Virus record (IMG/VR): IMGVR_UViG_3300012001_000010
Span: 6,356 to 70,355 of that record
DNA length: 64,000 nucleotides
Direction: 5' to 3' (one strand)
From: a virus
How positions within the stretch are numbered: position 1 is the first letter of the stretch; the number at the start of each line of letters is the position of its first letter. Below the pieces are notes generated by a model. It had not been told where the DNA came from. It worked only from the letters and a program-made list of their open reading frames with translations, and made no database searches. Shown here in pieces: positions 43,146-57,708 of this stretch. A program made the translations under genes and the position numbers.

Positions 43146-43169
43146 TTACGGTCTCCTGAAAGGTGGCCT

Positions 43170-43202: not shown

Positions 43203-43223
43203 GTTGCGAACTTGGATCATCGT

Positions 43224-44005: not shown

Positions 44006-44100
44006 ATTCCACTCTCCTGGGTGTGGTAGATGGAGACTTTGTAAAGTCTATCCAACGAGGTCTCCGTTGACGGTCTCGATCTTGTAAACGGGAAAGTCGC

Positions 44101-45405: not shown

Positions 45406-45737
45406 ACTTTACCGTTAAGCTTCCATTGCACGTAGGTTGGGTTATTGCGGTGAATGAGATATTGGATGACTTGGCAATCACGCCAAATCTCGGCCTGGAA
45501 CTCCAGTCCGTAGTGCTTTGAAGGATTGTCTGGGATTCCCGCCTTTCGGTTGATCGAGACATTAATGAGTCTCGTGAGTTCGCGTTGAGCCTCGGGCTTT
45601 TTGATATAGGAACCCCACTGGAATGGACGTGGGGCTTCATGGCAATCTGACGCGATAAACCGCTTGTACCACTTGAGCAACTTGACGGTGCCTGTGAGTT
45701 GCCGCTTCGTGATCTCTTGGCCTGCTTGCGTCAGCAT
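45336..45737 (-). CDS. Hypothetical protein
   Basis: 133 aa, overlaps the methyltransferase stop. Confidence 0.5.
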   Translation of the reverse strand: MLTQAGQEITKRQLTGTVKLLKWYKRFIASDCHEAPRPFQWGSYIKKPEAQRELTRLINVSINRKAGIPDNPSKHYGLEFQAEIWRDCQVIQYLIHRNNPTYVQWKLNGKVWLGTNYMQKRYGHLSRNVEDEG

Positions 45738-46927
45738 TCGACCTCCTCTTCTTCGACTTTCTCACTCTTGGGTTCGTTACTGTAGGTTGCCAGGTTGCCG
45801 TTCTGCTCGGCGCAACGGATGACAGTAATCATGCGTTGAGAGAAGACATCCTTCGTGGTGACGGCCCCACTGTCCGGGTTGGCCTCGGACGTGGACGCGG
45901 CGACGTTGTGATACTTGATCTTGTGCGAACTACCACGGACGACATGGACTCCATGCGGCCCTTCGACCACGCCATTAAGCATGCCCGACGCGAGGATCAG
46001 GCCCAGGTGCCCCTTGTCGAGCGGTAGCGGAGGTCTGGCTGGCGGCGGGATTGTGACTTCATCGAGTAGGCGATTAAGTGGACTCTCGCTGATGACGTGG
46101 AGTAATTCCGCCTCGGTGAACATCGTCTTCTTGAAGGTATGCGGCTTCCACGCGAGGGGTATCTCCCAGGTTCGGATATCCTCGTCCTTATCGTAACTGC
46201 CGCTCCCGTTCCGCCACGACTTCGGCTGCAACTGCCCCAGCGATGGGAGATTGTTTATATAAACGCAACCCCAGTGCATTTGCATCTGGGTGAGTGCGCC
46301 CACTTTGTCGAGCATATCCTTCGGGACGGCATCCTTTCGTTTCTTGCCGAACACGACGATCTCATTGTAACACCTGATCTGCTTGTGATCCTCGTCGTAG
46401 CCATCGGGGAACTTATAGACCGCGACATCAGAGTAATGCGAGTCGATAAACTCACAGAAGTTCCTGTTATTGCTCAGTGCGCCGAGCGGGCAGACAAGGG
46501 CGAGGATACCGCCGATGCAGAGGGTTCGGGTCGCCTTCTCGGTGAAAGCCTGCTCCTCTCGTCTTCCGCCACCAAGCTCCGCGTCGAACGGTGGATTAAC
46601 ATAGGCTAATCCAAAGCTGAACCCAGTGATCTGGACGCCAAGGAAGCTCGCGGGGCCGAGCAACTGGACGCCGGGGATACGCTCCCTGATCTTATCGACC
46701 CGGCCCGCGTCTAGCTCGACCGCGTAAGTCAGCGACGGCGGGATGTCGAGCGCCTTGCGGAGTTGTTCGAGTGCGGCACCTTCACCGGCACATGGGTCGA
46801 TGATGTTAACCGTGTTAAGCGGCCTCACTGGGTCTGGCTGTCTCTTGTAGAGATGGACGAGAATCCCGTCGAGTGCCGCCGCGTTAATCGGGAAGTATCC
46901 TAATTTCGCCTGTCCAGCCGGTCTCAT
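45731..46927 (-). CDS. Amino-DNA methyltransferase (DUF6094-like)
   Basis: AKLGYFP, DPCAGEG (SAM binding), VELD, NPPF. Confidence 0.85.
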   Translation of the reverse strand: MRPAGQAKLGYFPINAAALDGILVHLYKRQPDPVRPLNTVNIIDPCAGEGAALEQLRKALDIPPSLTYAVELDAGRVDKIRERIPGVQLLGPASFLGVQITGFSFGLAYVNPPFDAELGGGRREEQAFTEKATRTLCIGGILALVCPLGALSNNRNFCEFIDSHYSDVAVYKFPDGYDEDHKQIRCYNEIVVFGKKRKDAVPKDMLDKVGALTQMQMHWGCVYINNLPSLGQLQPKSWRNGSGSYDKDEDIRTWEIPLAWKPHTFKKTMFTEAELLHVISESPLNRLLDEVTIPPPARPPLPLDKGHLGLILASGMLNGVVEGPHGVHVVRGSSHKIKYHNVAASTSEANPDSGAVTTKDVFSQRMITVIRCAEQNGNLATYSNEPKSEKVEEEEVEC

Positions 46928-47124
46928 GACTCTAACTCCTCTTTAAGATGACACGATTCATTGAAGCGTTTCGTGTATTCTGTTGCCATCTCGATACTCA
47001 GGAAAGTCACCGAGAAGTCGAGAAACCTGAACGTGATATACCAGAGACGCCTCTTATTCGATCGCCTCTCGATCGACGGCCACCAGTGGAATCGGTCTAG
47101 CCCGGTAAAGTTAATCTGGATCAT
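46924..47124 (-). CDS. Small aromatic-rich protein, paralog of 43817-44005
   Basis: MIQINFTGLDRFHWWP; ATGA-coupled on both sides. Confidence 0.55.
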   Translation of the reverse strand: MIQINFTGLDRFHWWPSIERRSNKRRLWYITFRFLDFSVTFLSIEMATEYTKRFNESCHLKEELES

Positions 47125-47618
47125 GACCCTAACTCCTCTTGAGGAATGCATCGCCCGAGGATCGAACCGACTCGGTGGTCTTGCCGTGGGTCGTCGGCGT
47201 CACCTTGTAGGTAAGCGAGCATCAGCGCCCGCACGTCTTTAATGAATCTCTCGGGGTCGGCGATCCCGGCGCAGGCGTTGACGCAAGCCGCGATCCGCTT
47301 GGCAATATCCGCGTGTTCGACACCGAACTTGGGGTAAGGCTTCTTTGCGAGGGCGATGATGCCCTGGTCGGTCGCCATTGTTAGCGAGCCGTTGATGTTA
47401 TTACAGGGGCCTGGTTCGTGGATATTTGATCCACGGATGACCCAATCGGCGTCACGCTCGGCCCGATGCTTCGACGCTTCCCACTCAGATGTCAGTTCGG
47501 ACAGCCGCTCGGGATCGTGGTTGAAGTTAGGGGGGCCGAACCTGTAGGGGCTATCCCAGATGACGCTCTTTGTCGCGGTCCACGGTTCGTAGTAAGACTT
47601 CGGCTTGCCGATATCCAT
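47121..47618 (-). CDS. Hypothetical phage protein
   Basis: AAGGAG RBS; AKRIAACVNACAGI motif common in phage early proteins. Confidence 0.65.
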   Translation of the reverse strand: MDIGKPKSYYEPWTATKSVIWDSPYRFGPPNFNHDPERLSELTSEWEASKHRAERDADWVIRGSNIHEPGPCNNINGSLTMATDQGIIALAKKPYPKFGVEHADIAKRIAACVNACAGIADPERFIKDVRALMLAYLQGDADDPRQDHRVGSILGRCIPQEELGS

Positions 47619-47926
47619 GCTCTCTTCTCCTTATGTAATGGCGAAGAGAGCATAGACAATTATTTTGAATCAACCACAGCCACCAAGTCGGAATCGTTCA
47701 GTAGTAATTCCTTTTGTTCAGCGAGCAGCGATTCTATAGTCATACTCGCATTATTGTACTCGATGAAATGCCTGTACTTGTCTCGCCCCTGTTTCTTGTG
47801 GTGATGTAGAGCAAATGATCCCTGTTTGATTTTTGGTCGTTTCATTGATTCTGCCTTGTGATTTTAATGAGAAGTAATTAGCCGGGCCGAGAGACCCGGC
47901 TATGTGAGTTCAGTCTGTGCGGCGGT

Positions 47927-48436
47927 TTACGCGACCATATCTTCTCTGAGGAAGACCATCGCTTCGCTATGTATCTTTCGTCCATGCTTCTCGCTCAACC
48001 CGAGCGATAACCCAGCCTCTGCCGCTGATAGGCCTTGGGTGTAGACGAGATCACATAACTCTCTGTGCTTCGGGGGTAAGCCGCAGAGTATCTTTCTCAC
48101 ATTGGCGTTCGACTCGTCCTGGTCGAGATCGGCGGACATTTGCCGCATGTCCGGTATAAGTTCGGTGAAGTTGAGGCTCTGGAACCGCTTATAGTACGGC
48201 GCGTCGATGAGATCGAGGATTTCCCCCTCCATCGCCAGCGCCGACCATCGTTCCCAGATATCACCCTTGTCGGGGTCGAAGGATGAGGCGGCACGCATGA
48301 CACCCCAGAGCGCGGAAGACTTGAACTCTTGCTCGTGCTTTGGGAAGATTTTCGCGTACCGCTCGGCGATCCTATCGGCCCGACCGACCGCCTCGGCGGC
48401 GAGGCACTGTTGAGCTTCAGTCAGAGGCTCGATCAC
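47927..48436 (-). CDS. Second sigma-70 family sigma factor (compact, FliA/ECF-like)
   Basis: GVMRAASSFDPDKG...MEGEILD region 2; LPPKHRE...GLSAAEAGLSLGLSE region 4. Confidence 0.75.
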   Translation of the reverse strand: MIEPLTEAQQCLAAEAVGRADRIAERYAKIFPKHEQEFKSSALWGVMRAASSFDPDKGDIWERWSALAMEGEILDLIDAPYYKRFQSLNFTELIPDMRQMSADLDQDESNANVRKILCGLPPKHRELCDLVYTQGLSAAEAGLSLGLSEKHGRKIHSEAMVFLREDMVA

Positions 48437-48438
48437 GG

Positions 48439-48735
48439 TTATTCCTCGTCGTCAACCCCGAACTCGTCGTCATTAGGGCCGTTGTCATAAGGGACCGGCT
48501 CATCATTGGACTGGACCGGCTCGTCTTCATCGACGCCGAACTCGTCGTCGTGCGGGCCTTTCGAGTAGTCGAGCGGGGTCGTGTCATTCGACTTATGGCT
48601 TGTTTTTTCCGGTTGATCCGTGTGCATCATGTGATGTGGAAACGGCTCAGGAACTCGCTCTTTTGTCGTCTCGACGAATCGAGGATCATTGTAGATAACT
48701 GGAGTCATCCACTCGGGTCTCGGCTTGTCACTCAC
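48439..48735 (-). CDS. Acidic repeat protein
   Basis: GPxDDEFGVDxxE present twice. Confidence 0.5.
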   Translation of the reverse strand: MSDKPRPEWMTPVIYNDPRFVETTKERVPEPFPHHMMHTDQPEKTSHKSNDTTPLDYSKGPHDDEFGVDEDEPVQSNDEPVPYDNGPNDDEFGVDDEE

Positions 48736-48895
48736 GCAACTTTCCTTCCCTTGTTAGAGCTTCGCTGCTTTTCCATGAAGCGGTTCGGATGCTTGAGGGA
48801 GTCGAGTCCGGCTTCCCCTAGCTTAATCGCGACGACCTGGGCGTTACACTGATAGGCCCACGCCCGATTACGACGCTCTTGCTTTGTTCGCTCGA

Positions 48896-49813
48896 TCACG
48901 TATGGATGCTCCAGGTAATATTACCAACCTCTTCCGGGGTGGCATCCCTCTCTTTCTTCTCGGTATAGTCCCACGTCTTGAACTGGTACGAGCCGTCGAG
49001 GGCTATGGTCGGGGTGGGGCCATGTTGGATCAGTCCACCGTTTATCCCTCGCTTCTTCGACCCATCCTCCATGAATATGACCGTGTTCCATGCGAAGCTG
49101 AACTTATCCTCCTTGAACAGCCTCGTCTGGCTCGGCCTTGACCCGCAGAATCCCTGGCTTATATGAGCGATGTTCTGCTCGAAGCGGACGCGGCAATTAT
49201 CCCGATCCGTGACGATCCTCCTGTCGAACATCTCATCAAGGAAGCTCGCGAGTTTTCGACAACGACTGATCTGATCCTTCGTGTCCTCGTCGTAGACGAG
49301 TCCTGTGAAGTCGCAATCACGGCACACAAGCTCGCCATTGACCATGCAGGCCGACTTGTCGGATCGCCGACCGTAGTCATCCTTGTAGAGCCATTTCCCG
49401 CACTTCGAGCATTCATAAGCGGACACATCCTCGCCGGGAGCGTCCTTGTCGCCATCGACGACCGTGTATAGCCACATATCCTCGCGGTCGTCGAAGTACG
49501 TATCGAGGCTGTGATCCCTGTATAGACCCGCATTATAATGGTGGCCGAACATCTCGACCTCGACCGAATCCATTGACCCAATGCGGACGACGGGGCCGAA
49601 GATCATGCCGCTCGGATTCTTCGTGGTCTCCTGAGCCTCGTACTTCTCCATCCTCACGAACAAGGGGACCGTCGTGTCATTGACGAACTTCGGCCAGTCG
49701 ACGTTATCATCGTAACCCGATTTAGCTCGAAGGATTCCGTTGAGTCTCGCCTCGGTTCGGAACCAAGTGCCGTCGATGGGGGCACGCCGCCTCGGGATGT
49801 GTCGCAATGCCAT
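48896..49813 (-). CDS. Zn-finger protein with DUF4120-like C-terminus
   Basis: CSKC...CRDC; INGGLIQHG...WSIHT; AGGAG RBS at the 49813 ATG. Confidence 0.65.
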   Translation of the reverse strand: MALRHIPRRRAPIDGTWFRTEARLNGILRAKSGYDDNVDWPKFVNDTTVPLFVRMEKYEAQETTKNPSGMIFGPVVRIGSMDSVEVEMFGHHYNAGLYRDHSLDTYFDDREDMWLYTVVDGDKDAPGEDVSAYECSKCGKWLYKDDYGRRSDKSACMVNGELVCRDCDFTGLVYDEDTKDQISRCRKLASFLDEMFDRRIVTDRDNCRVRFEQNIAHISQGFCGSRPSQTRLFKEDKFSFAWNTVIFMEDGSKKRGINGGLIQHGPTPTIALDGSYQFKTWDYTEKKERDATPEEVGNITWSIHT

Positions 49814-49837
49814 TCGATCTCTCCTGAAAGGTGGCCC

Positions 49838-49870
49838 AAAAGGCAAAGCTCATTATGACCTTTGCCTTTT
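49838..49870 (+). repeat. 33-bp palindromic repeat, copy 7
   Basis: Exact consensus. Confidence 0.95.
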
Positions 49871-49874
49871 TGTG

Positions 49875-50141
49875 TCAGATGTAGCGGACGCCGCTACGCC
49901 AATCAGCCTGTACCGTCTCGTGTTCGGCCTTGGTTAGGCTCATGATTATTTTTATGACGCGATTCGGATAAAACATAGGCGGTTTCGGGATTCCCCTTGC
50001 TTCATCGGCGAGGATCGCGAGCTTGCGGCCGATTTGACTCACAGAGTCCAACTTGGCGGCTTCCTTAGTGGAGCCTTGTCCGACGAATCCTTCGACTTCG
50101 CCGTTTTCGTGTCGGTACACGGTTCGATACTCGTATAGCAT
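49875..50141 (-). CDS. Hypothetical protein
   Basis: MLYEYRTVY start directly after the upstream stop codon. Confidence 0.5.
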   Translation of the reverse strand: MLYEYRTVYRHENGEVEGFVGQGSTKEAAKLDSVSQIGRKLAILADEARGIPKPPMFYPNRVIKIIMSLTKAEHETVQADWRSGVRYI

Positions 50142-50142
50142 T

Positions 50143-50889
50143 TTAGTTCCCGATAGCCTTTCGGCCGTTGACCTTGCCGCCGATGGCACGATTGAGATTG
50201 AGCGACTTGCCCGCTTCATATCCCGCCCGGAGTGTATTCTTGTCTCCTTCCAGTTTAGAGAAGTGAGCTTTGCTCGCGGTTCGACTCGGATGCTTCTCGT
50301 GGAAAGCGATCTCGGTTTCCTTGTTGACGTTGACAAGGGCCAGTGCGGTGCCGCCGCTCGAACCACTCGCAATGTCCCGCTCGATCTCGATAACCTCACG
50401 CTCGTCGCGGAGCTTCTCGGTGAATCCTTTAGCGAGACCGGCGACGTAAAGCCGACGTTCCGAGGCAGGTTGACCGTTGATGATCTTGTAGTTCGTCCAG
50501 AGCCGATCGAATGCCGCATGGAGTGCGTTCCATGTCCACTTGGCGACCTGGACATTGGAGTCCTTTCCGAAGAACACGAGAGTCTTCGGCCCTGCTATAG
50601 TCGATTTTGTGAATACGCCCTCAATGAAGAAGAATTCCTTGACGATCCCGTAGACGAGATTGTTCTCCAGCGACCATTTGCCCGTCTCGAAGACGTTCTG
50701 CTCATCCCAGTCATCGCCGCCGCTGGCCGACTTAACCTCATCTATGCTCAGGTTGTGTTCAGCCATCATGCGGGACGCCATCGCGAAAGCCGTCTCGGCC
50801 TCGGATGACGTGCAGTTGTTGCGCTCAGTCCTCTCAAGAATCTTGCGGACCTTCTCGATCACGTCTGCCTTGGGTCGTTCGTCGTTCAC
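50143..50889 (-). CDS. DUF2786-domain protein
   Basis: VIEKVRKIL...EAETAFAMASRMMAEHNLS; AGYEAGKSLNL end. Confidence 0.8.
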   Translation of the reverse strand: MNDERPKADVIEKVRKILERTERNNCTSSEAETAFAMASRMMAEHNLSIDEVKSASGGDDWDEQNVFETGKWSLENNLVYGIVKEFFFIEGVFTKSTIAGPKTLVFFGKDSNVQVAKWTWNALHAAFDRLWTNYKIINGQPASERRLYVAGLAKGFTEKLRDEREVIEIERDIASGSSGGTALALVNVNKETEIAFHEKHPSRTASKAHFSKLEGDKNTLRAGYEAGKSLNLNRAIGGKVNGRKAIGN

Positions 50890-50903
50890 ACAGTTCTCCT
50901 TTC

Positions 50904-50953
50904 GGCCTCATCAGGTATGGATTCACCACACAAGCCCCGAAGGGCTTTCGGCC
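50904..50953 (-). ncRNA. Hammerhead ribozyme type II (HH1)
   Basis: GGCC GAAA GCCC-UUCG-GGGC UU^ GUGUGG-UGAAU-CCAUAC CUGAUGA GGCC. Confidence 0.88.
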
Positions 50954-50959
50954 TTGGAT

Positions 50960-51556
50960 TTAAGCGCTTCTAAGGCGGCAGTAAAAGACGCTGTAGAAAT
51001 CCCCACTTTGGCCTCGCATCGGGTTTGAGGTTCGGATTCGCCATCGCGATCCATCCGCCGAAGTATAGTCGTCCGTGTGGATATCCTTCGCCATAGTGTC
51101 ATCGGGTGTATATTGAACGAATTTAGGCGTGGCCGTATACTCTTCCCCCGTGACCGAGAAGGTTTCGTAAGGCTGAAATGTATCCCTGATATCAACGGGA
51201 AGTTGCGACTCTGGGATATCGGAATCCACCCTTAAGTCTGGCATCTCGGCCCCGATCGTCGGCTTATTGACTCCGACGATCGACTTGTCATCCGTCTTGA
51301 TCGTCACGGATTGCTGGAGCTTCACCATGTCGTCGCATGCGTCGATCAAGTTGCGAGCCAACGCAGACAGCATTGTGATACCGCCGAACACGCGAAGCTC
51401 CCTAATCTTAGGCGTACTGTCTACCCCTCCTTTGTTGTCAGGAAAATAGTGACGCTCGGCGACGATGATGACCATTTCGCAAGTCGCTTCCAACCTGGTT
51501 GGATCATCTTGCGGCATGAGGAAGAGGTTCCTCGCGGAACCGATAACCTGTAACAT
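50960..51556 (-). CDS. Hypothetical protein
   Basis: GGGAGA RBS downstream of HH2; MLQVIGSARN start. Confidence 0.6.
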   Translation of the reverse strand: MLQVIGSARNLFLMPQDDPTRLEATCEMVIIVAERHYFPDNKGGVDSTPKIRELRVFGGITMLSALARNLIDACDDMVKLQQSVTIKTDDKSIVGVNKPTIGAEMPDLRVDSDIPESQLPVDIRDTFQPYETFSVTGEEYTATPKFVQYTPDDTMAKDIHTDDYTSADGSRWRIRTSNPMRGQSGDFYSVFYCRLRSA

Positions 51557-51577
51557 TCTTCTATCTCCCGTAATATT

Positions 51578-51629
51578 GGCCTCATCAACATGGTATACAA
51601 CCACGTACCTGCTTACAACAGGTTTCGGC
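51578..51629 (-). ncRNA. Hammerhead ribozyme type II with U3 core variant (HH2)
   Basis: GCC GAAA CCUGU-UGUAA-GCAGG UA^ CGUGGU-UGUAU-ACCAUG UUGAUGA GGC. Confidence 0.75.
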
Positions 51630-51635
51630 TTTATG

Positions 51636-51785
51636 TCACATCCAGCCTCGAAACCTGTTGTAAGCAGGTACACACTCTGGATTACGCTTCGCCTCACGCC
51701 GCTCCCGGCGTGCCTTCAATTTCTTATGGAAACCACGGCAACGCAGATTGAATCCTTGGCAATCAGCTTTGACACATAGCGACAT
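51636..51785 (-). CDS. 49-aa basic Cys-containing peptide (below the ORF-track cutoff)
   Basis: GAGGA RBS; MSLCVKADCQGFNLRCRGFHKKLKARRERREAKRNPECVPAYNRFRGWM. Confidence 0.45.
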   Translation of the reverse strand: MSLCVKADCQGFNLRCRGFHKKLKARRERREAKRNPECVPAYNRFRGWM

Positions 51786-51844
51786 GGGCTTATCCTCGTG
51801 TCCCGGTTTAGTGTGGGTGTGCGTGTGCGTGTGAACCGACAGTC

Positions 51845-52102
51845 TTAGCGGTTGGGCGACAATTCAGTGACGCTCGCGAGTTGCCGGAACGAATGAGGGG
51901 TTGCGAGTCCTTCATCGGGAGTCTCAGTGACGTACTTCGCGAGCATCTTTGTCCGTGCCCTCATGAGCGCCTGTTCGCGGCCTTCGCATCCGACCTCGAT
52001 CACACTGATTCCTTTGAACGTGACCCGATAGCGGACGATCCGGGCCTTGACGCGGCGGGCATTCTCCATCGAACCGAGATAGCGTTCCATCATTGCGCCC
52101 AT
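51845..52102 (-). CDS. Hypothetical protein
   Basis: AGGAG RBS directly after HH3. Confidence 0.6.
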   Translation of the reverse strand: MGAMMERYLGSMENARRVKARIVRYRVTFKGISVIEVGCEGREQALMRARTKMLAKYVTETPDEGLATPHSFRQLASVTELSPNR

Positions 52103-52122
52103 CGTTGTAGCTCCTGGTTTGT

Positions 52123-52174
52123 GGCCTCATCAGGCACCGACCTACGGTGCGACCCCTTCCTTGGGGTTTCGGCC
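52123..52174 (-). ncRNA. Hammerhead ribozyme type II (HH3)
   Basis: GGCC GAAA CCCC-AAGGAA-GGGG UC^ GCACCG-UAGGU-CGGUGC CUGAUGA GGCC. Confidence 0.93.
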
Positions 52175-52483
52175 TTAGTCGATCCGGTTGTTTAGCGAGT
52201 GCTGCTCGGCCAGATTCATCGCCGCCGCGATCTTGTCCGCTGTATTCTTTGAGACGACGCGAACAAAGACGGTCTTCCTGTTTCCTGTTTTTCCGGTTGC
52301 CTTCATAGTGTTGACAGCGACTTCGACGACCGCGAAATTAAGGTCCGGCCTAGGGGTAGTCCCGCTGGTCGTTCTCAGCTTAACTAGCGTGACTCCGATT
52401 GAGTCGTCTTTCCTCCCGTCAATAACTTCGTAACGTCGCGCTGTCGTAAAAGGAACGGTTTCGTGATTCTTCTTGGCGTCCAT
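52175..52483 (-). CDS. Hypothetical protein
   Basis: MDAKKNHET start, bracketed by HH4 and HH3. Confidence 0.6.
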   Translation of the reverse strand: MDAKKNHETVPFTTARRYEVIDGRKDDSIGVTLVKLRTTSGTTPRPDLNFAVVEVAVNTMKATGKTGNRKTVFVRVVSKNTADKIAAAMNLAEQHSLNNRID

Positions 52484-52511
52484 AAAAATCTTCCGTAGTA
52501 AGAGTTGATAT

Positions 52512-52563
52512 GGCCTCATCAGTGTGGGAGAAACCCACATACCCCTTCCTTGGGGTTTCGGCC
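52512..52563 (-). ncRNA. Hammerhead ribozyme type II (HH4)
   Basis: GGCC GAAA CCCC-AAGGAA-GGGG UA^ UGUGGG-UUUCU-CCCACA CUGAUGA GGCC. Confidence 0.93.
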
Positions 52564-52569
52564 TTGATT

Positions 52570-52821
52570 TTATCCGAGCATATCGTCCTCGTCGTCCTCG
52601 TCATCCTCGGCCGCGATGATCTCTTCGAGTCGATGAATGATCTTCGACATTGATTTCTCGTATCCAGCCTTGATGATCTCATCAAGCTTCTCTCTTGCTT
52701 CGTCGTAGTCGGAGTCGACCGTATCCCAATCGACGACTATAAACTCGGGGTCGCATCCAAACCCAGTCGTCTCGGTGACGACTCCTCCCTCGACCTCAAC
52801 AACGATGTATTGCTTTGCCAC
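52570..52821 (-). CDS. Small highly acidic protein
   Basis: IVVEVEGGVV...VVDWD; EDDEDDEDD tail. Confidence 0.65.
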   Translation of the reverse strand: MAKQYIVVEVEGGVVTETTGFGCDPEFIVVDWDTVDSDYDEAREKLDEIIKAGYEKSMSKIIHRLEEIIAAEDDEDDEDDMLG

Positions 52822-52867
52822 GATATTGAATCCCCTGTAGTGTTTCCACGTTTCGATAAAGGTACTC

Positions 52868-53140
52868 TTAGATCACGATTCCGAACCTTGCGCGGTGTTT
52901 CAATTCCTCGAACTTGGAGCAGAGTGCGTTGACCAGTACCCGGCACTTAAGCCAGAGCACTCCCGTATTCTCCTCTCCAGTGATAAGAGTCGATTCGCTG
53001 TAATTATGTTCGCCGTCTTGATGCTTGATCGTGACCCAGACTCCCGCGTCCGTGTAGTGGCAATCCATCTCCGGGCGATCAAGCATCGTGTTGATCGCGG
53101 AGATAGCGCGGGAGGCCGCAAGTTCCTGATTGGCTTTCAT
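52868..53140 (-). CDS. Hypothetical protein
   Basis: AGGAG RBS; 90 aa. Confidence 0.55.
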   Translation of the reverse strand: MKANQELAASRAISAINTMLDRPEMDCHYTDAGVWVTIKHQDGEHNYSESTLITGEENTGVLWLKCRVLVNALCSKFEELKHRARFGIVI

Positions 53141-53173
53141 TCCTTGGACTCCTGTTTGTGAGGATAGAGTAGG

Positions 53174-53476
53174 TCACGTAAAGAAGCTCTCTACGTCCTT
53201 GCGGTTAAAATCGTGGATATCAATCCATTTAACCGTTTGACGATGCTCGATAAACGATTCAACGAGCGATGAGCAATCATTGATAATTTCGTCTTGACTT
53301 AGATTCAAGGCGAACGCCGATTCAACGGAAAACTCCCTTTGGTGTCCATCGTGAATCTCGGCATGGATAATCCTGACGATGACACTTCCGTTTCGTTTAA
53401 AAGTGTAAACGAAAGGATTGCCAATCTTTGACTTGACGAACTCGATCGCTAAACGAGAGATGTCGTGTTCTGTCAT
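53174..53476 (-). CDS. Hypothetical protein (AT-rich)
   Basis: MTEHDIS start after AGGA. Confidence 0.5.
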   Translation of the reverse strand: MTEHDISRLAIEFVKSKIGNPFVYTFKRNGSVIVRIIHAEIHDGHQREFSVESAFALNLSQDEIINDCSSLVESFIEHRQTVKWIDIHDFNRKDVESFFT

Positions 53477-53478
53477 TG

Positions 53479-53682
53479 CTAGTCCTGCTCCGTTAGAGAG
53501 AACTCCTCGCAAATTTGATCCGCGATGGCGATAGCCAACGCACTCTCGATTGTGATTTTCAGCCGATCCCCGATCTCCTTGATCCTCTCTGGGTAACGCT
53601 TGGCGTACCACATGTGGTCTTGCGCGATCCTCGCGATCCTTTCGTAATAAGGAGGGAGATTCCGCTTCATTTTATCGCTCAT
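53479..53682 (-). CDS. Hypothetical protein
   Basis: 67-aa ORF in the early operon. Confidence 0.5.
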   Translation of the reverse strand: MSDKMKRNLPPYYERIARIAQDHMWYAKRYPERIKEIGDRLKITIESALAIAIADQICEEFSLTEQD

Positions 53683-53715
53683 GATTTTCCCTGCGATGAT
53701 TCCTTTGTAAGACCA

Positions 53716-53862
53716 CTACTTGCTTTCGAGGAGTGACACTTTGGCCCAAGGGAGTTTGGCCTTGATCTGGTCGATACAGGCATGAGCGAGTTCCGAGGTC
53801 TTGAACGCCCCGGCGTCCATCCATGTCTTTGTGGACGGGTTGAACAGTATGACGTAGAACAT
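53716..53862 (-). CDS. Small hypothetical protein
   Basis: AGGGAG RBS; MFYVILFNP start. Confidence 0.5.
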   Translation of the reverse strand: MFYVILFNPSTKTWMDAGAFKTSELAHACIDQIKAKLPWAKVSLLESK

Positions 53863-53914
53863 GGGCTTCTCCCTTGGATTCGGCGTGATAGTGAGTGGTG
53901 GATGCAGATGTAGG

Positions 53915-54328
53915 TCAGGATTTCCGACCTGCAACTAAAACGGTCTCGACCTTGGGCGGGACACGACGCCCCGGCTTCACTTCATCCCACGGATCAAATG
54001 GTTTCCGCTCGCGTTCGATCGGGAACATCCGATCCCCTGTCTCACGGATGACATGGACGAGACGATCCGATTTCTTGGTCAAGAGGACTGGAAGCCACTT
54101 AACCGCTCCGATTCCGGGGATGATCGAGAAGATAGCTACTTCGCTGAATCGCCCAGTCTCTCGGATCGCCAATTCGATTCCGGCGGGGTTTCCGTCCCGC
54201 GTTGCCTTCGAGTAAGCCTTGAGGAATGATCGGCAATTCGCCGATTCCGTTTTGTCAGCGCATCCAAGGCGGCTTTCGATATATTCCTTGAGCAGAGCCG
54301 TCCGCTGCTGATCCGGCTTGAGGATCAT
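53915..54328 (-). CDS. Hypothetical protein
   Basis: MILKPDQQ start inferred. Confidence 0.45.
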   Translation of the reverse strand: MILKPDQQRTALLKEYIESRLGCADKTESANCRSFLKAYSKATRDGNPAGIELAIRETGRFSEVAIFSIIPGIGAVKWLPVLLTKKSDRLVHVIRETGDRMFPIERERKPFDPWDEVKPGRRVPPKVETVLVAGRKS

Positions 54329-54457
54329 GATCCGTCTAGGACGTGCGGGAGGATCATTGCGTGTCGTTGCCGTAAAAATCCCCGTTCGATCCCGTATAGG
54401 CCCAAGGATCGGGCGGGGATTGCATGCAGTCATGCAGGCTCATTTCGAGTAGGCATG

Positions 54458-54492
54458 AAAAATCAACCCCCTAGGCATTACCTAGGAGGTTG
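54458..54492 (-). terminator. Intrinsic terminator
   Basis: CAACCUCCUAGG/CCUAGGGGGUUG stem followed by AUUUUU on the minus strand. Confidence 0.6.
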
Positions 54493-54618
54493 TCTTATCT
54501 TCCGATTCCATTTCGTTCCCGTTTGGTTGTTTCTAGGGGACGCATCCCCCAGGCCACCCGTTCGCGGTCCTTCCACCCGTTTCGTTTATGTCCGGGTGGA
54601 AGGCTTGCGAACGGGGGA

Positions 54619-55635
54619 TTAACCCGCTTTGGTCGTGATGAGAGCGTTGTCGATGACCTTGAGCATCTGATCCAGCGTGTCGCGAAGGACACGCATTTCG
54701 GAGACCTTGCCCGCTGCTTGCAGACCTTGTGCGAGCATGCGAACGTCGTTCTTGGTGCAATTCTCGATGTCGAAACCGCCGACGACGGGCATCTCAAGGT
54801 TGTGGAGCTTGAGAACCTTGGCGGCAATCTCGGCCACATCGGCGGGAGTTGCATGATCCGTGTCGAGCGCTTTGGAAATGGCGTCCGAAATCTTCGACTG
54901 GGCAGCTTCCTTGTCGGCGCGGAGCTTCCGATCCGCGACCTTAGCCGCAGCGGCGCTGATCTCTTCCGGGGTCTTAGCCTTGCCGCGAGATTCCTTCTCG
55001 GCCGCGATCTTAGCCTTCTCGGCGTCGATAGCGTCATTGAGTTCCGCGATCGACAAGGGGAACTTGCTCAACTGGCGATCGACGTAGCATGCCGCGAAAC
55101 CGATCCAGCCCTTGCGGATTTCTCCGGTAAGGGCTTCGGGATCGAATTCGAGCATTGGCAGGAAGTTGTGGTAAACCTGCCCGTAAGGCATGTCGTCCAC
55201 ATTCGCGACCATCGGCCGGACGGCTTCGATGAACAAGTGCATGCGAATATACTTGTCGAACTCAACCGTCTTGATGGCGATCCGGCTCTTGACGAGCAAC
55301 TCGCAGTCGTCGCAGACTTTCTTCAAGTCCTTGACGCCGTTCCACGATCCAGCCTTGAGACTCGCCTTGCGGCGATTCGCCAGCTTAAGCGCGTGCTTGC
55401 CGAGCTTCGCGTACTTCTTGAGCTTGTCCTTCGGGTCAAGGGTATCGGCCGCGAGGGTGACGAGTTGCTCTTCATCCTTGCCGTAGCCGATCTGCTCGGC
55501 CACGAACTTCGGATCGGGCTTCAACGAATCCTCTTCGACGGGGGGGAGACCCTTGGCGTCGTCGTCCATCAATTCGGCCTCGATAACCGTGGACCCGCCG
55601 ACGTACTTGACAAGTTCCGTGCTGTTGGTGAACAT
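54619..55635 (-). CDS. First gene of the leftward early block, helical Lys/Ala-rich protein
   Basis: 338 aa from MFTNSTEL; strong codon bias. Confidence 0.65.
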   Translation of the reverse strand: MFTNSTELVKYVGGSTVIEAELMDDDAKGLPPVEEDSLKPDPKFVAEQIGYGKDEEQLVTLAADTLDPKDKLKKYAKLGKHALKLANRRKASLKAGSWNGVKDLKKVCDDCELLVKSRIAIKTVEFDKYIRMHLFIEAVRPMVANVDDMPYGQVYHNFLPMLEFDPEALTGEIRKGWIGFAACYVDRQLSKFPLSIAELNDAIDAEKAKIAAEKESRGKAKTPEEISAAAAKVADRKLRADKEAAQSKISDAISKALDTDHATPADVAEIAAKVLKLHNLEMPVVGGFDIENCTKNDVRMLAQGLQAAGKVSEMRVLRDTLDQMLKVIDNALITTKAG

Positions 55636-55641
55636 GGTACT

Positions 55642-56450
55642 GGCGTTCCGTTCTCTTGACGGAATGCCGCCGGAGTGGGGGATGCTTGTCGCATCCCTCA
55701 CTCCACTTGCTTTCCCGGATATGACATACCCGATCAAAGCTTGCGGCAAGTGGATCATCGGAGAGTTGCACTCCGATATCGACTTCGCCTCTGCATCACG
55801 ACCAAACTAGTCCAGCGTTGTCACGATCGGCACAATGCCGACACGCTTGGCTAGCTTGGATATGTTGCAACGAACATTAGGCCACGACCGCCCTTTGCAG
55901 GCGACTAAGGAGAGAATTACACTCTCCATTCCGTTTTATGTTACGGTCGTTTAGAACTGGCCTAACTATGTCACAATGGAAACCGGCATGCCGGAACACC
56001 ATTGCATTATCCAAATGCTGACGAATCGTTTCGGCGAGTTACAGTAACGAGTTACGTCGTTACGTGAGGGAGTTTCGCCCTCTTTGACTTGCCTACCCTG
56101 CGATTGTCGCGAACCATTTCAGGCTCTAGCTTTGTTCCTAGTCATTCCATCGCGAGTGTACAGGTACACAAACGCGAATCAGACTCCATGAACATTTGGA
56201 CTACGTTTTTTCTTCCCGATCCGAGCAAGGCGGTTTGTTTCGTGTCTCGTTTCCTTCCCAGTGTAGGGGATGAATCCCCTAGGCCATTTCAGTCCGCACC
56301 ACGATCCGTACCGCTTTAGGCGGGTTTTCGTGGGCGGGTTAAACTCGGCCACTAAAAGTTAGTGGCACTACCCTAGGCACACTGGCCATTGTGGGCTTGC
56401 GTCCGGCGGGTCTCATTAGGCCCGTCTGACACTCCAAATCTAGGCCCCAC
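55642..56450 (+). ncRNA. Candidate large structured non-coding RNA (or ssDNA structure)
   Basis: Dense nested inverted repeats, no credible ORF, G-U wobbles mostly on the plus strand. Confidence 0.5.
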
Positions 56451-57205
56451 AAACCAAACGTCAAATCAAAATGGCAAACCGCTTGAAACGTGTTTATAAA
56501 AAGCAACGCTTACAAGTGTGGATACTATAACGGCGCACGCGCACGCCTATGTACGCGCAGGCGCACGAGATTTTGCCCCAAAAACCAAGTGTCCAAATCT
56601 CGCGCATGCGCCTGTTTCATTACTGGAAAAAATCAACACCTGCCTGCCTGCCTGCATAGGCACGCGAATAACGGGCGCGTTAGTAACTAAGGCGTGCATA
56701 CGCGGAGAACTAAACGCGTGTAAGGGGCCTAGGGCTTGCTCTAGGGCATGGTAAGGCTAAATTTTGCGGCGAGCCTACGGCGTTTAGGGTACAGGTGGAC
56801 ACTAGGGGACAAGCGGATAGTTAACCCTCGGGCGTAGGCGTATACGCGCACGCACGCGGGATGCTTAGTGGGCAATCGTATAGTAGGTGCAGTTAGTTAG
56901 TGGGCAAATGCTAAGTTAGTGGGTTTAAGTATAGGTAATTTAAGAGGGTAGTGTTCGTAAGAGCAGTTAAAATTAAGAGGATTCAAGCAATGAATATATC
57001 GGCAAATGCTTATCTGTCAGTGAGAGGCACCATAATGAGTACCCTAACCCTATACCCTGCCAGGGGTTATGGCGACACCCGCCGAGTCCCCCCAATTCAA
57101 AAACTTCGCGGGCTAACCTTCACAGCCTGGAATTTTTTAACCCTGGGGTAATTTGCCCCTATCCGCCCCTTCCTTATATATAGGGACCATGTAGGCACCT
57201 AAGCT

Positions 57206-57238
57206 AAAAGGCAAAGGTCATAATGAGCTTTGCCTTTT
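57206..57238 (-). repeat. 33-bp palindromic repeat, copy 8 (reverse core)
   Basis: AAAAGGCAAAGGTCATAATGAGCTTTGCCTTTT; flanks shared with copy 5. Confidence 0.95.
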
Positions 57239-57291
57239 GAGGGGCCTTAAATTTAACGGGCGGAAGGAACGCCCGAATCCGGCATGGATGC

Positions 57292-57708
57292 TCAGGTCTT
57301 AAATCTCATCTTGGCCGGTACAGATACTGCCTGCGTCGATGGATATGAGAGATTCTTAAGGATCGCGATCATCTTGACTTGATTCCGGTTCAGCTTCTCA
57401 AGGAGCCGTTCTGTCCTCGCCATGCTCTCCATCTGCTCCCGCCGCCATGAGTCGTGCATCTGAAGAGGCTTGAGGCCGACATGATCCTCTTCGGACTGGA
57501 TCGACCTTCTGCGGTTCTCGCTAGCAACCCAATCCTCGAACCATTTAACCTGAGACATCGCGGTGATCTTACGCCGACGAGACATAGGTAGGGTTCGCAT
57601 TGCGGCTCTAAGGAGCGGCAGTCCCGAAAGTTCGGGCTTGGAACGCTGGATGTCTATCGCTTCCTTGGCGACCAGAGCCTTCTCGGGGTCGGACCAGAAG
57701 ACTTTCAT
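57292..57708 (-). CDS. Hypothetical basic protein (possible DNA binder)
   Basis: 138 aa; WSDPEKALV start. Confidence 0.55.
   Translation of the reverse strand: MKVFWSDPEKALVAKEAIDIQRSKPELSGLPLLRAAMRTLPMSRRRKITAMSQVKWFEDWVASENRRRSIQSEEDHVGLKPLQMHDSWRREQMESMARTERLLEKLNRNQVKMIAILKNLSYPSTQAVSVPAKMRFKT

What the first reader, a model, noticed from the sequence alone, without database searches (positions are those of the whole stretch)
50904..52563. Four hammerhead ribozymes separate consecutive early genes
Seen: four type II hammerheads on the coding (minus) strand within 1.7 kb, each with GAAA, stem III, NUH (CUU, GUA, GUC, GUA), stem I, (C/U)UGAUGA and a GGCC-type stem II. Stem sequences differ between copies but pairing is kept. 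Each starts 0-6 nt after a stop codon and ends just before the next ribosome-binding region. Known: hammerheads occur in phages, mostly with unknown roles. Inference: the early polycistronic mRNA cuts itself into near-monocistronic units with 5'-OH hairpin ends, without needing host RNase III. Units flanked by two ribozymes could be circularised, and shared sequence (CCCCTTCCTTGGGGTTTCGGCCTT in HH3 and HH4) could let genes swap as cassettes.
Basis: partly seen in the sequence, partly recalled or inferred. Interest (0 to 1): 0.85.

Follow-up and report, generated by a model that had tools for sequence, protein, structure and literature searches.

The report
Four hammerhead ribozymes between phage genes
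Four small self-cutting RNA motifs (type II hammerhead ribozymes) really do sit between consecutive small genes of an uncultured 70-kb soil phage and probably cut its long message into gene-sized pieces, but this layout has been known in phages since 2011, so it is a clean new example rather than a new kind of thing.

Summary
Four complete type II hammerhead motifs lie on the minus strand at 50904-50953, 51578-51630, 52123-52174 and 52512-52563. A descriptor scan finds only these four in the window, against 0.01 per shuffle. All four fold as three-way junctions, and stems I and III covary. A covariance model built only from other viral contigs scores them at 40-59 bits, with the next hit at 14.5 bits.

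Rfam's Hammerhead_II model misses all four. They belong to a subfamily with a GGCC stem II and no pseudoknot, found in 57 IMG/VR stretches and 25 genome stretches.

In that subfamily, 50 of 73 copies have a stop codon just before the ribozyme and a ribosome-binding site and start just after it. Random positions show this 4.2% of the time.

The self-processing reading is plausible, but Perreault et al. 2011 already proposed it and tested it in vitro for prophage clusters. Arrays of 11 copies exist, and this scan has reported such arrays before on other DNA.

HH2 has a variant core (U3), a 3-bp stem II and a 23-bp competing hairpin, so it is probably slow or conditional. Circular RNA and cassette swapping are untested. 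Ribozyme halves are mosaic between copies.

Verdict: new member of a known kind, low to moderate interest.

The parts
50904..50953 (-). HH1, a type II hammerhead with triplet CUU. Predicted cleavage is 3' of U50932, between 50932 and 50931. Stem III is closed by a UUCG loop. AAGGAG follows stem II directly.
   Evidence: Sequence read. Descriptor hit. Three-way-junction MFE fold, also kept in 140-nt context. Model R1 scores it 51.3 bits, E 2.3e-12.
51578..51630 (-). HH2, a variant type II hammerhead. The core is UUGAUGA (U3 instead of C3), stem II is 3 bp plus an A.C mismatch, and the triplet is GUA. Predicted cleavage is between 51606 and 51605.
   Evidence: R1 scores it 40.3 bits, the weakest of the four. 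None of the descriptor-listed copies from other contigs has T at this position.
52123..52174 (-). HH3, a type II hammerhead with triplet GUC. Predicted cleavage is between 52151 and 52150. The TAA stop of g7 abuts stem II.
   Evidence: R1 scores it 59.3 bits, E 1.2e-14.
52512..52563 (-). HH4, a type II hammerhead with triplet GUA. Predicted cleavage is between 52540 and 52539.
   Evidence: R1 scores it 56.8 bits, E 6e-14.
51649..51671 (-). Upstream arm of a perfect 23-nt inverted repeat. Its partner, 51605-51627, is the GAAA, stem III and cleavage site of HH2. The resulting hairpin competes with the HH2 fold.
   Evidence: Inverted repeat I1. In a 141-nt context the MFE and centroid contain this hairpin, not the ribozyme (-57.5 kcal/mol, z -6.78, 0 of 200 shuffles). 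It also appears as a spurious mir-981 hit.
52570..52821 (-). g6, an 83-aa ORFan that ends 6 nt before HH4.
   Evidence: ORF list. Codon score 0.54 in frame against -0.48 and -0.94 in the shifted frames of the same strand and 0.35 for the best opposite-strand frame. No Pfam or PHROG family.
52175..52483 (-). g7, a 102-aa ORFan flanked by HH4 and HH3. The unit from cleavage site to cleavage site is 389 nt.
   Evidence: No family found. Protein Atlas best score 0.78.
51845..52102 (-). g8, an 85-aa ORFan downstream of HH3.
51786..51844 (-). CA-rich spacer (CACACGCACACGCACACCCACAC). This is the one junction in the run that has no ribozyme.
   Evidence: Sequence read. No R1 hit here.
51636..51785 (-). 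g9, a doubtful 49-codon ORF. Its 3' end carries the lock arm, and its TGA lies in the lock loop.
   Evidence: Codon score -0.09, the best of the six frames but not clearly coding.
50960..51556 (-). g10, a 198-aa ORFan flanked by HH2 and HH1.
   Evidence: Only itself was found in the protein search (1 protein with E <= 0.001 among 45 candidates). Atlas best score 0.87.
50143..50889 (-). g11, a 248-aa protein with DUF2786 and DUF7168 (phrog_421). Its GTG start lies 14 nt after HH1.
   Evidence: Pfam E 6.9e-11 and 7.7e-13. phrog_421 E 5.3e-33.

Best explanation
These are four type II hammerhead self-cleaving ribozyme motifs. They are transcribed as part of a minus-strand multi-gene message of small ORFan genes in a complete 70-kb uncultured soil phage.

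Each is expected to cut itself 3' of H17, at 52540|52539, 52151|52150, 51606|51605 and 50932|50931. The upstream piece would end in the stem III hairpin with a 2',3'-cyclic phosphate. The downstream piece would begin with a 5'-OH directly at the stem I hairpin, 14-28 nt ahead of the next start codon and its ribosome-binding site.

The likely effect is to cut the message into gene-sized units: g7 alone, g8 with g9, and g10 alone. This would uncouple each unit's stability and translation from its neighbours, much as ribozyme insulators do in synthetic operons.

HH1, HH3 and HH4 have consensus cores. HH2 has U3, a 3-bp stem II and a 23-bp competing hairpin, so it is probably slow, or active only when the upstream arm is held open, for example by a ribosome.

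Shown here: the motifs, their strand, their position at gene boundaries and their family membership. Inferred: transcription as one message, cleavage, and the consequences for mRNA stability and translation.
For: Motif and statistics:
- 4 descriptor hits in the window against 0.01 per shuffle.
- Three-way-junction MFE folds for all four.
- 55 of 56 cells paired, with 8 of 14 pairs covarying among the four copies.

Family membership:
- Model R1 was built from 35 copies in other viral contigs. In that alignment 525 of 525 cells pair and 12 of 15 pairs covary.
- R1 scores the four at 59.3, 56.8, 51.3 and 40.3 bits. The fifth-best hit in 64 kb, with filters off, is 14.5 bits.
- Rfam RF02276 passes its cut-off on 4 of the 33 sibling copies that my descriptor listed in eight loci, which ties the subfamily to the curated type II family.

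Position at gene boundaries:
- Of 73 non-own copies, 64 have the stop of an ORF of at least 40 codons within 15 nt upstream.
- 59 of 73 have an SD-like motif plus a start of an ORF of at least 40 codons within 80 nt downstream.
- 50 of 73 have both.
- At 2,960 random same-strand positions the rates are 11.9%, 29.6% and 4.2%.

Context in this phage:
- The flanking ORFs g6, g7, g8, g10 and g11 score as coding on the minus strand.
- The consensus scan finds no terminator-like site on the minus strand between 54464 and 47902.
- Phage identity: terminase, structural protein, helicases, a serine recombinase at 44364-45317 and ParB-like proteins. The record is 70,355 bp and 100% complete by CheckV.

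Precedent in print:
- Clustered hammerheads flank single genes in prophages. Three tandem arrangements cleaved during in vitro transcription of about 2-kb polycistronic fragments, and the A. tumefaciens set cleaved in vivo (PMC3088659, passages read).
- Three type II hammerheads near phage-like genes of D. vulgaris cleave in vivo (PMC8782182, abstract and passages read).
Against: - No RNA data exist for this phage, so transcription and cleavage are unobserved.
- Rfam's Hammerhead_II does not detect any of the four, even at E <= 10.
- The loop I to 3'-tail pseudoknot that supports fast cleavage in most published type II examples is absent. Best complementarity is 2-4 nt, no better than with shuffled tails. 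The family mean is 3.06 against 3.08 for shuffled tails.
- The four loop I sequences (UGAAU, UGUAU, UAGGU, UUUCU) depart from the subfamily's usual U-N-A-N-G loop, so any tertiary contact may be weak.
- In 140-nt contexts only HH1 keeps the full ribozyme in the MFE. HH4 keeps stems I and III. HH3 keeps only stem III. z-scores are not significant.
- HH2 is outcompeted by the lock hairpin.
- R1 was built from copies retrieved with a pattern taken from these very elements (AAGGCCGAAA...CTGATGAGGCC). Its score for stem II and the core is therefore partly circular. Only the geometry and pairing of stems I and III are independent.
- A terminator-like hairpin at 54492-54464 and unknown promoters leave the transcript boundaries open.
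Confidence: 0.7

Rival explanations
1. The motifs are real hammerhead descendants, but they are weak or inactive under cellular conditions. On this view they behave like minimal ribozymes with no tertiary contact. They would persist mainly as intergenic hairpin modules, acting as 3' and 5' stabilisers or as spreading repeats, with cleavage playing little part.
For: - No pseudoknot signal.
- Loop I departs from the subfamily consensus.
- Stem II is only 4 bp and open.
- The larger-context MFE keeps the full fold only for HH1.
- HH2 has U3 and a lock hairpin.
- Perreault et al. say that some clustered hammerheads 'may not be functional'.
Against: - Three of the four keep every invariant core nucleotide and perfect pairs next to the core.
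- Stems covary both within this phage and across the subfamily, which indicates selection on the fold rather than decay.
- Every tandem cluster tested in print cleaved.
Confidence: 0.15
2. Cleavage is conditional rather than constitutive, so the ribozymes act as translation-coupled switches. A ribosome terminating at the stop codon that abuts stem II covers the 5' strand and blocks folding. At HH2 the reverse applies: translation of the upstream frame melts the 23-bp lock and permits folding. Cutting would then report whether the upstream gene is being translated.
For: - The stop codon lies 0-6 nt from stem II in all four copies here. It lies -1 to 1 nt from stem II in 45 of the 64 subfamily copies that have a qualifying upstream stop.
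- The perfect 23-nt lock has its 5' arm inside the 3' end of ORF g9 and the TGA in its loop.
- Perreault et al. raise regulated cleavage for slow phage variants.
Against: - g9 scores poorly as a gene.
- The search pattern forced AA before GGCC, which favours TAA stops, so the 0-nt mode is partly built in.
- There is no experimental evidence.
Confidence: 0.1
3. The ribozyme pairs define mobile or circularising units. A piece cut at both ends carries a stem I half at its 5' end and a stem III half at its 3' end. The universal palindromic GGCC stem II lets these halves re-form a hammerhead that could religate the piece into a circle. Alternatively, the conserved halves serve as DNA recombination joints that exchange gene cassettes.
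For: - Halves are mosaic. HH4 shares 25 of 25 nt of its 5' half with HH3, 76% of a 33-nt 3' half with HH2, and 86% of 21 nt including the stop flank with HH1.
- Half-only identity occurs in 11 of 101 within-contig pairs against 8 of 2,902 between-contig pairs.
- Identical whole ribozymes in L005 have different 3' tails directly after stem II.
- Perreault et al. name circular or spliced products as a possibility.
Against: - Perreault et al. could not detect circular or spliced products (data not shown in their paper).
- There is no RtcB in the phage.
- The exact HH3/HH4 module is not found elsewhere (0 stretches in metagenome contigs).
- The two relatives found by terminase carry no copy and none of the neighbouring genes I searched for, so gene content cannot be compared.
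- Mosaicism can also arise from gene conversion between short hairpins.
Confidence: 0.05

Closest known systems
Clustered hammerhead ribozymes flanking single genes or short gene blocks in prophages (Perreault et al. 2011, PLoS Comput Biol, PMC3088659; passages read)
   Same: - Several hammerheads lie on one strand and flank individual genes of varying identity in phage DNA.
- A recombinase gene is nearby.
- The proposed role, cutting long phage transcripts into operon- or gene-length mRNAs, is the same.
- The type II topology is the same.
   Different: - This is an uncultured soil phage with four copies, and the flanked genes are ORFans.
- The copies lack the loop I to 3'-tail pseudoknot that the paper reports for most type II examples.
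- Cleavage is untested here.
- I could not see the paper's figures or supplements, which may already include this subtype.
Rfam Hammerhead_II (RF02276)
   Same: - The core is the same (A-GGC-GAAA ... CUGAUGA).
- Stem II is open and stems I and III are capped.
- Sibling copies in L005 and L054 pass the gathering score at 37.3-39.3 bits against 37.
   Different: - None of the four reaches even E <= 10.
- They have a 4-bp GGCC stem II, a 6-bp stem I with a 5-nt loop, short stem III hairpins and no pseudoknot tail.
Type II hammerheads of Desulfovibrio vulgaris shown active in vivo by cyPhyRNA-seq (PMC8782182; abstract and passages read)
   Same: These are type II hammerheads next to hypothetical and phage-like genes. 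Two of them lie close together.
   Different: Those were experimentally shown to cleave in vivo and in vitro. Here there is only sequence evidence.
Synthetic ribozyme insulators such as RiboJ
   Same: A hammerhead upstream of an RBS cuts off the upstream RNA and leaves a hairpin at the new 5' end, which standardises expression of the downstream gene.
   Different: Those are engineered devices derived from a satellite-RNA hammerhead and placed after promoters. The elements here are natural type II copies placed between cistrons.

Membership tests
Hammerhead ribozyme (any type) | Invariant core: C3 U4 G5 A6 N7 G8 A9, G12 A13 A14, the A15.1-U16.1 pair, and H17 (not G) at the cleavage site. | tested here: met
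   HH1, HH3 and HH4 read CUGAUGA ... GAAA, with the A-U pair closing stem III and H17 = U, C and A respectively.
Hammerhead ribozyme (any type) | The same invariant core, tested in HH2. | tested here: not met
   HH2 reads UUGAUGA, which gives U3 with G8, a wobble in place of the C3-G8 pair. Perreault et al. report natural U3/A8 covariants, not U3/G8. All other core positions are met.
Hammerhead ribozyme (any type) | Three helices around the core, with no mispair directly next to the core. | tested here: met
   The MFE is a three-way junction for all four. 55 of 56 cells pair. The single failure is the outermost stem II pair of HH2.
Hammerhead ribozyme (any type) | Self-cleavage 3' of H17, giving 2',3'-cyclic phosphate and 5'-OH ends. 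| not testable with these tools
   No RNA run was listed for this DNA. This needs in vitro transcription or end mapping.
Type II hammerhead (Rfam RF02276; Perreault et al. 2011) | Stem II open, with stems I and III closed by loops. | tested here: met
   The order along the RNA is stem II 5' strand, GAAA, stem III hairpin, UH, stem I hairpin, CUGAUGA, stem II 3' strand.
Type II hammerhead (Rfam RF02276; Perreault et al. 2011) | Score at or above Rfam's gathering cut-off of 37 bits. | tested here: not met
   There are 0 matches at gathering in the window and no Hammerhead_II match at E <= 10 in 50500-53000. The only RF02276 hits in the record are 11.8 and 8.8 bits, elsewhere.
Type II hammerhead (Rfam RF02276; Perreault et al. 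2011) | A pseudoknot of at least 4 bp between loop I and the 3' tail after stem II. The paper reports this for the majority of type II examples, not all. | tested here: not met
   Best complementarity is 3, 3, 2 and 4 nt for HH3, HH4, HH1 and HH2. This is no better than with shuffled tails: the fraction of shuffles at least as good is 0.47-1.0.
GGCC-stem-II type II subfamily of viral contigs (defined here) | A significant match to a covariance model built only from copies in other contigs. | tested here: met
   R1 scores 59.3, 56.8, 51.3 and 40.3 bits (E 1e-14 to 3e-9), with the next hit at 14.5 bits. Caveat: the training copies were retrieved with a pattern taken from these elements.
Clustered phage hammerheads (Perreault et al. 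2011) | Several copies on the coding strand that flank single genes or short gene blocks in phage DNA. | tested here: met
   Four copies in 1.7 kb flank g7, g8+g9 and g10.
Clustered phage hammerheads (Perreault et al. 2011) | A polycistronic transcript that is cut into the predicted pieces. | not testable with these tools
   Only consensus scans are available. No terminator-like site lies on the minus strand between 54464 and 47902.

The most novel reading that the evidence does not exclude
The ribozyme halves, not whole ribozymes, are the inherited modules. Stems I and III are self-contained hairpins and stem II is the same palindrome (GGCC/GGCC) in every copy. Any RNA piece cut at both ends therefore carries a stem I half at its 5' end and a stem III half at its 3' end. 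These can re-form a complete hammerhead around the gene and bring the 5'-OH and cyclic-phosphate ends together. That would allow self-ligation into circular single-gene mRNAs. At the DNA level it would let genes be exchanged between arrays without ever breaking a ribozyme. The mosaic pattern of halves would be the footprint of such exchange.
Probability: 0.06. Interest if true: 0.75.

Novelty: new member of a known kind. Interest (0 to 1): 0.25.

Why it matters
The biological role of bacterial and phage hammerheads is still described as largely elusive (review PMC6765202, passages read).

This locus is a compact test bed. Within 1.7 kb it has three consensus ribozymes and one naturally handicapped copy that carries a built-in competing hairpin, all flanking short ORFs. 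One construct could therefore test three things: whether cleavage sets the stability and translation of each cistron, whether the lock makes cutting depend on translation, and whether pieces cut at both ends circularise.

It also documents a type II subfamily without a pseudoknot. That subfamily is spread over many phyla and Rfam's model largely misses it, which matters for annotation.

As a discovery it adds little. The arrangement was published in 2011, much larger arrays exist (11 copies in about 5 kb in L005), and this scan has already reported such arrays on other DNA.

Tried and rejected
Searches that gave nothing useful:
- Rfam at gathering score on the whole window gave 0 matches.
- Rfam at E <= 10 on 50500-53000 gave 7 weak matches. 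None was Hammerhead_II. The one Hammerhead_3 match (19.4 bits against 48.5) is mis-registered: it joins HH4's stem I and core to a downstream CGAAAC. The mir-981 and MIR9555 matches are the HH2 lock hairpin.
- RF02276 on the whole record gave two irrelevant hits of 11.8 and 8.8 bits.
- Rfam at E <= 1 on 43000-57500 found no twister, pistol, hatchet or other ribozyme.
- No RNA holder was listed for 50000-53500. The only run holding the DNA is a soil metagenome that may be its source.
- blastn of 49000-54000 against the phage collection gave no match.

Relatives:
- g11 and g10 found no relatives in viral contigs.
- The terminase found two partial relatives, L064 and L065 (records 58% and 43% complete). 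They have no R1 hit and no homologue of g11 or of the 379-aa gene, so the ribozyme region could not be compared.
- The exact HH3/HH4 module gave 0 stretches in metagenome contigs.

Function of the flanked genes:
- Pfam and PHROGs found nothing for g6-g10.
- g10 finds only itself.
- Protein Atlas scores of 0.87 and 0.78 are below the level that means anything.

Other checks:
- The pseudoknot between loop I and the 3' tail was tested and rejected.
- A phage-encoded RtcB ligase is absent. Other RNA ligase families were not searched.
- I considered that the elements are chance matches or DNA-level repeats that only look like hammerheads. I rejected this because of the shuffle control and the covariation in stems I and III alongside an invariant catalytic core.

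Rows dropped:
- 35 of the 69 distinct non-own copies were used for A2 and R1: those with a stem III hairpin of at most 20 nt and a stem I hairpin of 17 nt.
- L043, which is cut by the contig end, was left out of the context count.
- Eleven of the 57 IMG/VR loci (L009, L020, L027, L028, L031, L033, L037, L041, L042, L049, L052, L058 are near-duplicates of listed ones) were not given. Remaining near-duplicates may still inflate the counts.

Supplementary files of the papers were not seen. Dataset S1 and the figures of Perreault et al. may already contain this subtype.


Full report
WHAT THE WINDOW IS

The window is bases 6356-70355 of a 70,355-bp IMG/VR virus record that CheckV rates 100% complete. 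The only sequencing run holding it is a soil metagenome.

PHROG matches identify it as a phage: a large terminase, a virion structural protein, helicases, a serine recombinase or invertase at 44364-45317, and ParB-like proteins. From about 57.7 kb down to 39.7 kb the long ORFs run on the minus strand.

THE OBSERVATION

Read on the minus strand, four elements have the full order of a type II hammerhead. That order is:
- stem II 5' strand (GGCC; AGCC in HH2)
- GAAA
- a stem III hairpin closed by the A15.1-U16.1 pair
- H17
- a 6-bp stem I hairpin with a 5-nt loop
- CUGAUGA (UUGAUGA in HH2)
- stem II 3' strand (GGCC)

Coordinates and cleavage triplets:
- HH1, 50953-50904, CUU
- HH2, 51630-51578, GUA
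- HH3, 52174-52123, GUC
- HH4, 52563-52512, GUA

A descriptor I wrote for this architecture finds exactly these four on both strands of the window. In 100 dinucleotide-preserving shuffles the mean was 0.01 hits and the maximum 1. YTGATGAGGCC occurs exactly four times, all here and all on the minus strand. A fifth match needs one mismatch and lies at 33315 on the plus strand.

Each isolated element has the three-way junction as its minimum-free-energy and centroid structure. Among the four copies, 55 of 56 pair cells are standard pairs and 8 of 14 pairs change on both sides, including all six pairs of stem I. None of 500 shuffles reaches these values, and sliding the partners by 1-3 columns drops pairing to 30-44%. 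The pattern search over the whole record found no further copy outside the window.

WHY RFAM MISSES THEM, AND WHAT FAMILY THEY BELONG TO

- Rfam at gathering score reports nothing in the window.
- A permissive scan of 50500-53000 reports no Hammerhead_II match.
- RF02276 run on the whole record gives only two unrelated hits of 11.8 and 8.8 bits.

This reflects the model, not the motif. The pattern AAGGCCGAAA-N28-48-CTGATGAGGCC occurs in 57 stretches of IMG/VR. It also occurs in 25 stretches of the species-representative genome collection. Their record titles name Acidobacteriota, Verrucomicrobiota, Planctomycetes (Pirellulaceae, Singulisphaera), Synergistales, Saccharibacteria, Pseudomonadota, Nitrospirae and one Hadarchaeota MAG.

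My descriptor listed 33 copies in eight of the viral loci. Rfam RF02276 passes its cut-off for 4 of them, at 37.3-39.3 bits against 37. The subfamily therefore sits on the edge of the curated family.

I aligned 35 of the 69 distinct non-own copies, choosing those with short stem III hairpins. In that alignment 525 of 525 cells pair and 12 of 15 pairs covary. These rows had been pre-selected by a descriptor that demands short runs of pairs, so the 100% figure is partly built in. The covariation is not.

A covariance model from that alignment (R1) was run over the window with filters off. It scores HH3, HH4, HH1 and HH2 at 59.3, 56.8, 51.3 and 40.3 bits. The next hit is 14.5 bits. The training copies were fished with a pattern taken from these elements, so the stem II and core part of the score is circular. 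The geometry and pairing of stems I and III is independent evidence.

HOW THE FOUR COPIES DIFFER FROM THE PUBLISHED TYPE II CONSENSUS

Perreault et al. 2011 report that most type II hammerheads have a pseudoknot of four or more pairs between loop I and the tail after stem II, and that it is needed for fast cleavage (PMC3088659, passages read).

I found no such signal here. The best loop-tail complementarity is 3, 3, 2 and 4 nt for the four copies, no better than with shuffled tails. Over all 78 aligned copies the mean is 3.06 against 3.08 for shuffles.

The subfamily instead has a conserved pentaloop on stem I, mostly U-N-A-N-G (UUAGG, UGAUG, UUAUG, UAAGG and others). The four copies here (UGAAU, UGUAU, UAGGU, UUUCU) keep only the first U consistently. 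How stems I and II are held parallel in this subfamily is therefore unknown. The copies here may be slower than typical natural hammerheads.

GENE CONTEXT

A codon-usage log-odds score, trained on 16 long ORFs of the window, puts g6, g7, g8, g10 and g11 clearly in frame on the minus strand. In-frame scores are 0.27 to 0.54, against -0.38 to -0.94 for the shifted frames of the same strand and up to 0.35 (g6) for the opposite strand. The genes are:
- g6, 52570-52821
- g7, 52175-52483
- g8, 51845-52102
- g10, 50960-51556
- g11, 50143-50889

g9 (51636-51785, 49 codons) scores -0.09 and is doubtful.

The ribozymes sit at the junctions g6|g7 (HH4), g7|g8 (HH3), g9|g10 (HH2) and g10|g11 (HH1). The g8|g9 junction has a CA-rich spacer and no ribozyme.

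From the stop codon to stem II is 6, 0, 5 and 6 nt. From stem II to the start codon is 28, 20, 21 and 14 nt, with an SD-like motif in between.

The five upstream junctions of the same gene run (g1 to g6) have no ribozyme of any Rfam class. The consensus scan finds terminator-like sites on the minus strand at 54492-54464 and 47902-47879 and none between them. This is consistent with one transcript spanning the four ribozymes, but it does not prove one.

g6 to g10 have no Pfam or PHROG family. g10 finds only itself in the large protein collection. The Atlas gives nothing above 0.87. g11 carries DUF2786 and DUF7168 (phrog_421).

'Early genes' is an inference from small ORFans placed after a 1.5-kb non-coding stretch. 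I could not test it.

THE LAYOUT IS A PROPERTY OF THE SUBFAMILY

R1 finds 78 copies at E <= 0.001 in 46 sources. Four are in the window and 74 elsewhere. I examined 73 of the 74, leaving out L043 because the contig end cuts it. The results:
- 64 have the stop of an ORF of at least 40 codons within 15 nt upstream. The commonest distance is 0-1 nt.
- 59 have an SD-like motif and a start of an ORF of at least 40 codons within 80 nt downstream.
- 50 have both.

At 2,960 random positions on the same strands the rates are 11.9%, 29.6% and 4.2%.

Caveats: some contigs are near-duplicates, and the search pattern forced AA before GGCC, which favours TAA.

Arrays are common. L005 has 11 copies in about 5 kb and L039 has 7.

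HH2 IS DIFFERENT

- Its core has U3. None of the descriptor-listed copies from other contigs has T there, although the descriptor allowed it.
- Its stem II is 3 bp plus an A.C mismatch.
- Its GAAA, stem III and cleavage site (51605-51627) have a perfect 23-nt inverted copy at 51649-51671.

In a 141-nt context this hairpin, not the ribozyme, is the minimum-free-energy and centroid structure (-57.5 kcal/mol, z -6.78, 0 of 200 shuffles). The upstream arm is transcribed first, so HH2 should be blocked unless that arm is occupied.

An earlier first-reader note on this window (e1-6170373) made the same point and proposed a translation-coupled switch. I confirm the hairpin, but the ORF it depends on (g9) scores poorly as a gene.

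For the other three copies, 140-nt contexts give the following. HH1 keeps the whole ribozyme in the MFE. HH4 keeps stems I and III. HH3 keeps only stem III. Ensemble frequencies are low and z-scores are not significant. This says little, because co-transcriptional folding favours the local hairpins.

MOST LIKELY MECHANISM

The established chemistry of hammerheads is cleavage 3' of H17, giving a 2',3'-cyclic phosphate and a 5'-OH. Applied here, the cuts would fall at 52540|52539, 52151|52150, 51606|51605 and 50932|50931. The internal pieces would be 389 nt (g7), 545 nt (g8 and g9) and 674 nt (g10).

Each downstream piece would start with a 5'-OH directly at the stem I hairpin, followed by the core strand, GGCC, and the ribosome-binding site. 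Each upstream piece would end in the stem III hairpin.

From general knowledge of bacterial mRNA decay (recalled, not tested here), a 5' hairpin and a non-phosphorylated 5' end slow 5'-end-dependent RNase attack, and a 3' hairpin slows 3' exonucleases. The plausible effect is that each cistron gets its own stability and an RBS context that does not depend on what lies upstream. This is the reading that Perreault et al. proposed for prophage clusters and that the 2019 review repeats while calling the function elusive.

My confidence, claim by claim:
- about 0.95 that the motifs are genuine hammerhead-family members
- about 0.7 that at least three of them cut the transcript
- about 0.5 for the stability and insulation role

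CIRCLES AND CASSETTES

Stems I and III are local hairpins and stem II is the same palindrome in every copy. A piece cut at both ends could therefore re-form a hammerhead from its own two ends.

There is a real mosaic pattern. HH3 and HH4 share a 25-nt 5' half exactly, while their stem I regions are 24% identical. HH4's 3' half is 76% identical to HH2's over 33 nt. HH4's 5' flank, including the stop codon, is 86% identical to HH1's over 21 nt.

Across the multi-copy contigs in the R1 alignment, including this window, 11 of 101 within-contig pairs are at least 90% identical in one half and under 70% in the other. That compares with 8 of 2,902 between-contig pairs. Copies within a contig are also more alike overall, 0.50 against 0.32.

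This fits exchange or conversion of halves but does not show gene mobility. Against circles:
- Perreault et al. report that they could not detect circular or spliced products.
- The phage has no RtcB.

I could not compare gene content in relatives. The two relatives found by terminase are partial and lack the region, and the exact HH3/HH4 module is not found elsewhere.

COMPARISON WITH WHAT IS KNOWN, AND VERDICT

The closest known system is the clustered type II (and I and III) hammerheads that flank single genes in prophages (Perreault et al. 2011). In vivo activity of type II copies next to phage-like genes is shown in D. vulgaris (PMC8782182).

My two further literature searches turned up no paper that establishes the function of such clusters. 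I did not find this subfamily described by name, but I could not see figures or supplements.

The scan itself has reported such arrays before on other DNA. A word search returned 149 notes in at least 125 genomes, including arrays of 8-30 copies and a note that a subclass misses the Rfam cut-off.

The finding is therefore real and cleanly documented, but it is a new member of a known kind. Its particular features are of modest interest: no pseudoknot, mosaic halves, and one locked variant copy.

Noticed in passing
window 51605-51671 (minus strand): A perfect 23-nt inverted repeat pairs the GAAA, stem III and cleavage site of HH2 with the 3' end of the doubtful 49-codon ORF g9. In context it outcompetes the ribozyme fold (z -6.78). 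Another first-reader note flags the same feature.
   Followed up: partly
window 51786-51844 (minus strand): A CA-rich spacer (CACACGCACACGCACACCCACAC) lies between g8 and g9. It is the only junction inside the ribozyme run without a hammerhead, and its function is unknown.
   Followed up: no
window 10881-13724 (+): The large terminase is 947 aa. In the two related contigs (L064, L065) query residues 6-947 match only about 1.8 kb of DNA. This phage's terminase therefore probably carries an insertion of about 330 aa, possibly an intein or homing element.
   Followed up: no
L014, L026, L034, L036, L045, L051, L058, L008, L024, L046, L057, L059; L039:10577-10618: In many subfamily copies the tail after stem II reads (C)CAUCAG, complementary to the CUGAUG core strand. 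One copy with a CUGACGA core has the tail CGUCAG, which is a compensatory change. This points to a hairpin that masks the core. The four copies in this window lack it.
   Followed up: partly
L005:170-5158 (minus strand of the locus): An IMG/VR contig of 67.6 kb carries 11 subfamily hammerheads in about 5 kb. Three of them are identical as whole ribozymes but have different downstream flanks.
   Followed up: partly
window 54464-54492 (minus strand): A strong terminator-like hairpin (13-bp stem followed by a T run) follows the 379-aa gene and lies just upstream of the small-gene run that contains the ribozymes. It may mark the start of a separate transcription unit.
   Followed up: no
window 55660-57200: About 1.5 kb upstream of the minus-strand gene block has no convincing ORF. 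It contains two sigma-70-like promoter matches on the minus strand (57020-56993 and 56464-56437). Another first-reader note flags it as a candidate ncRNA.
   Followed up: no
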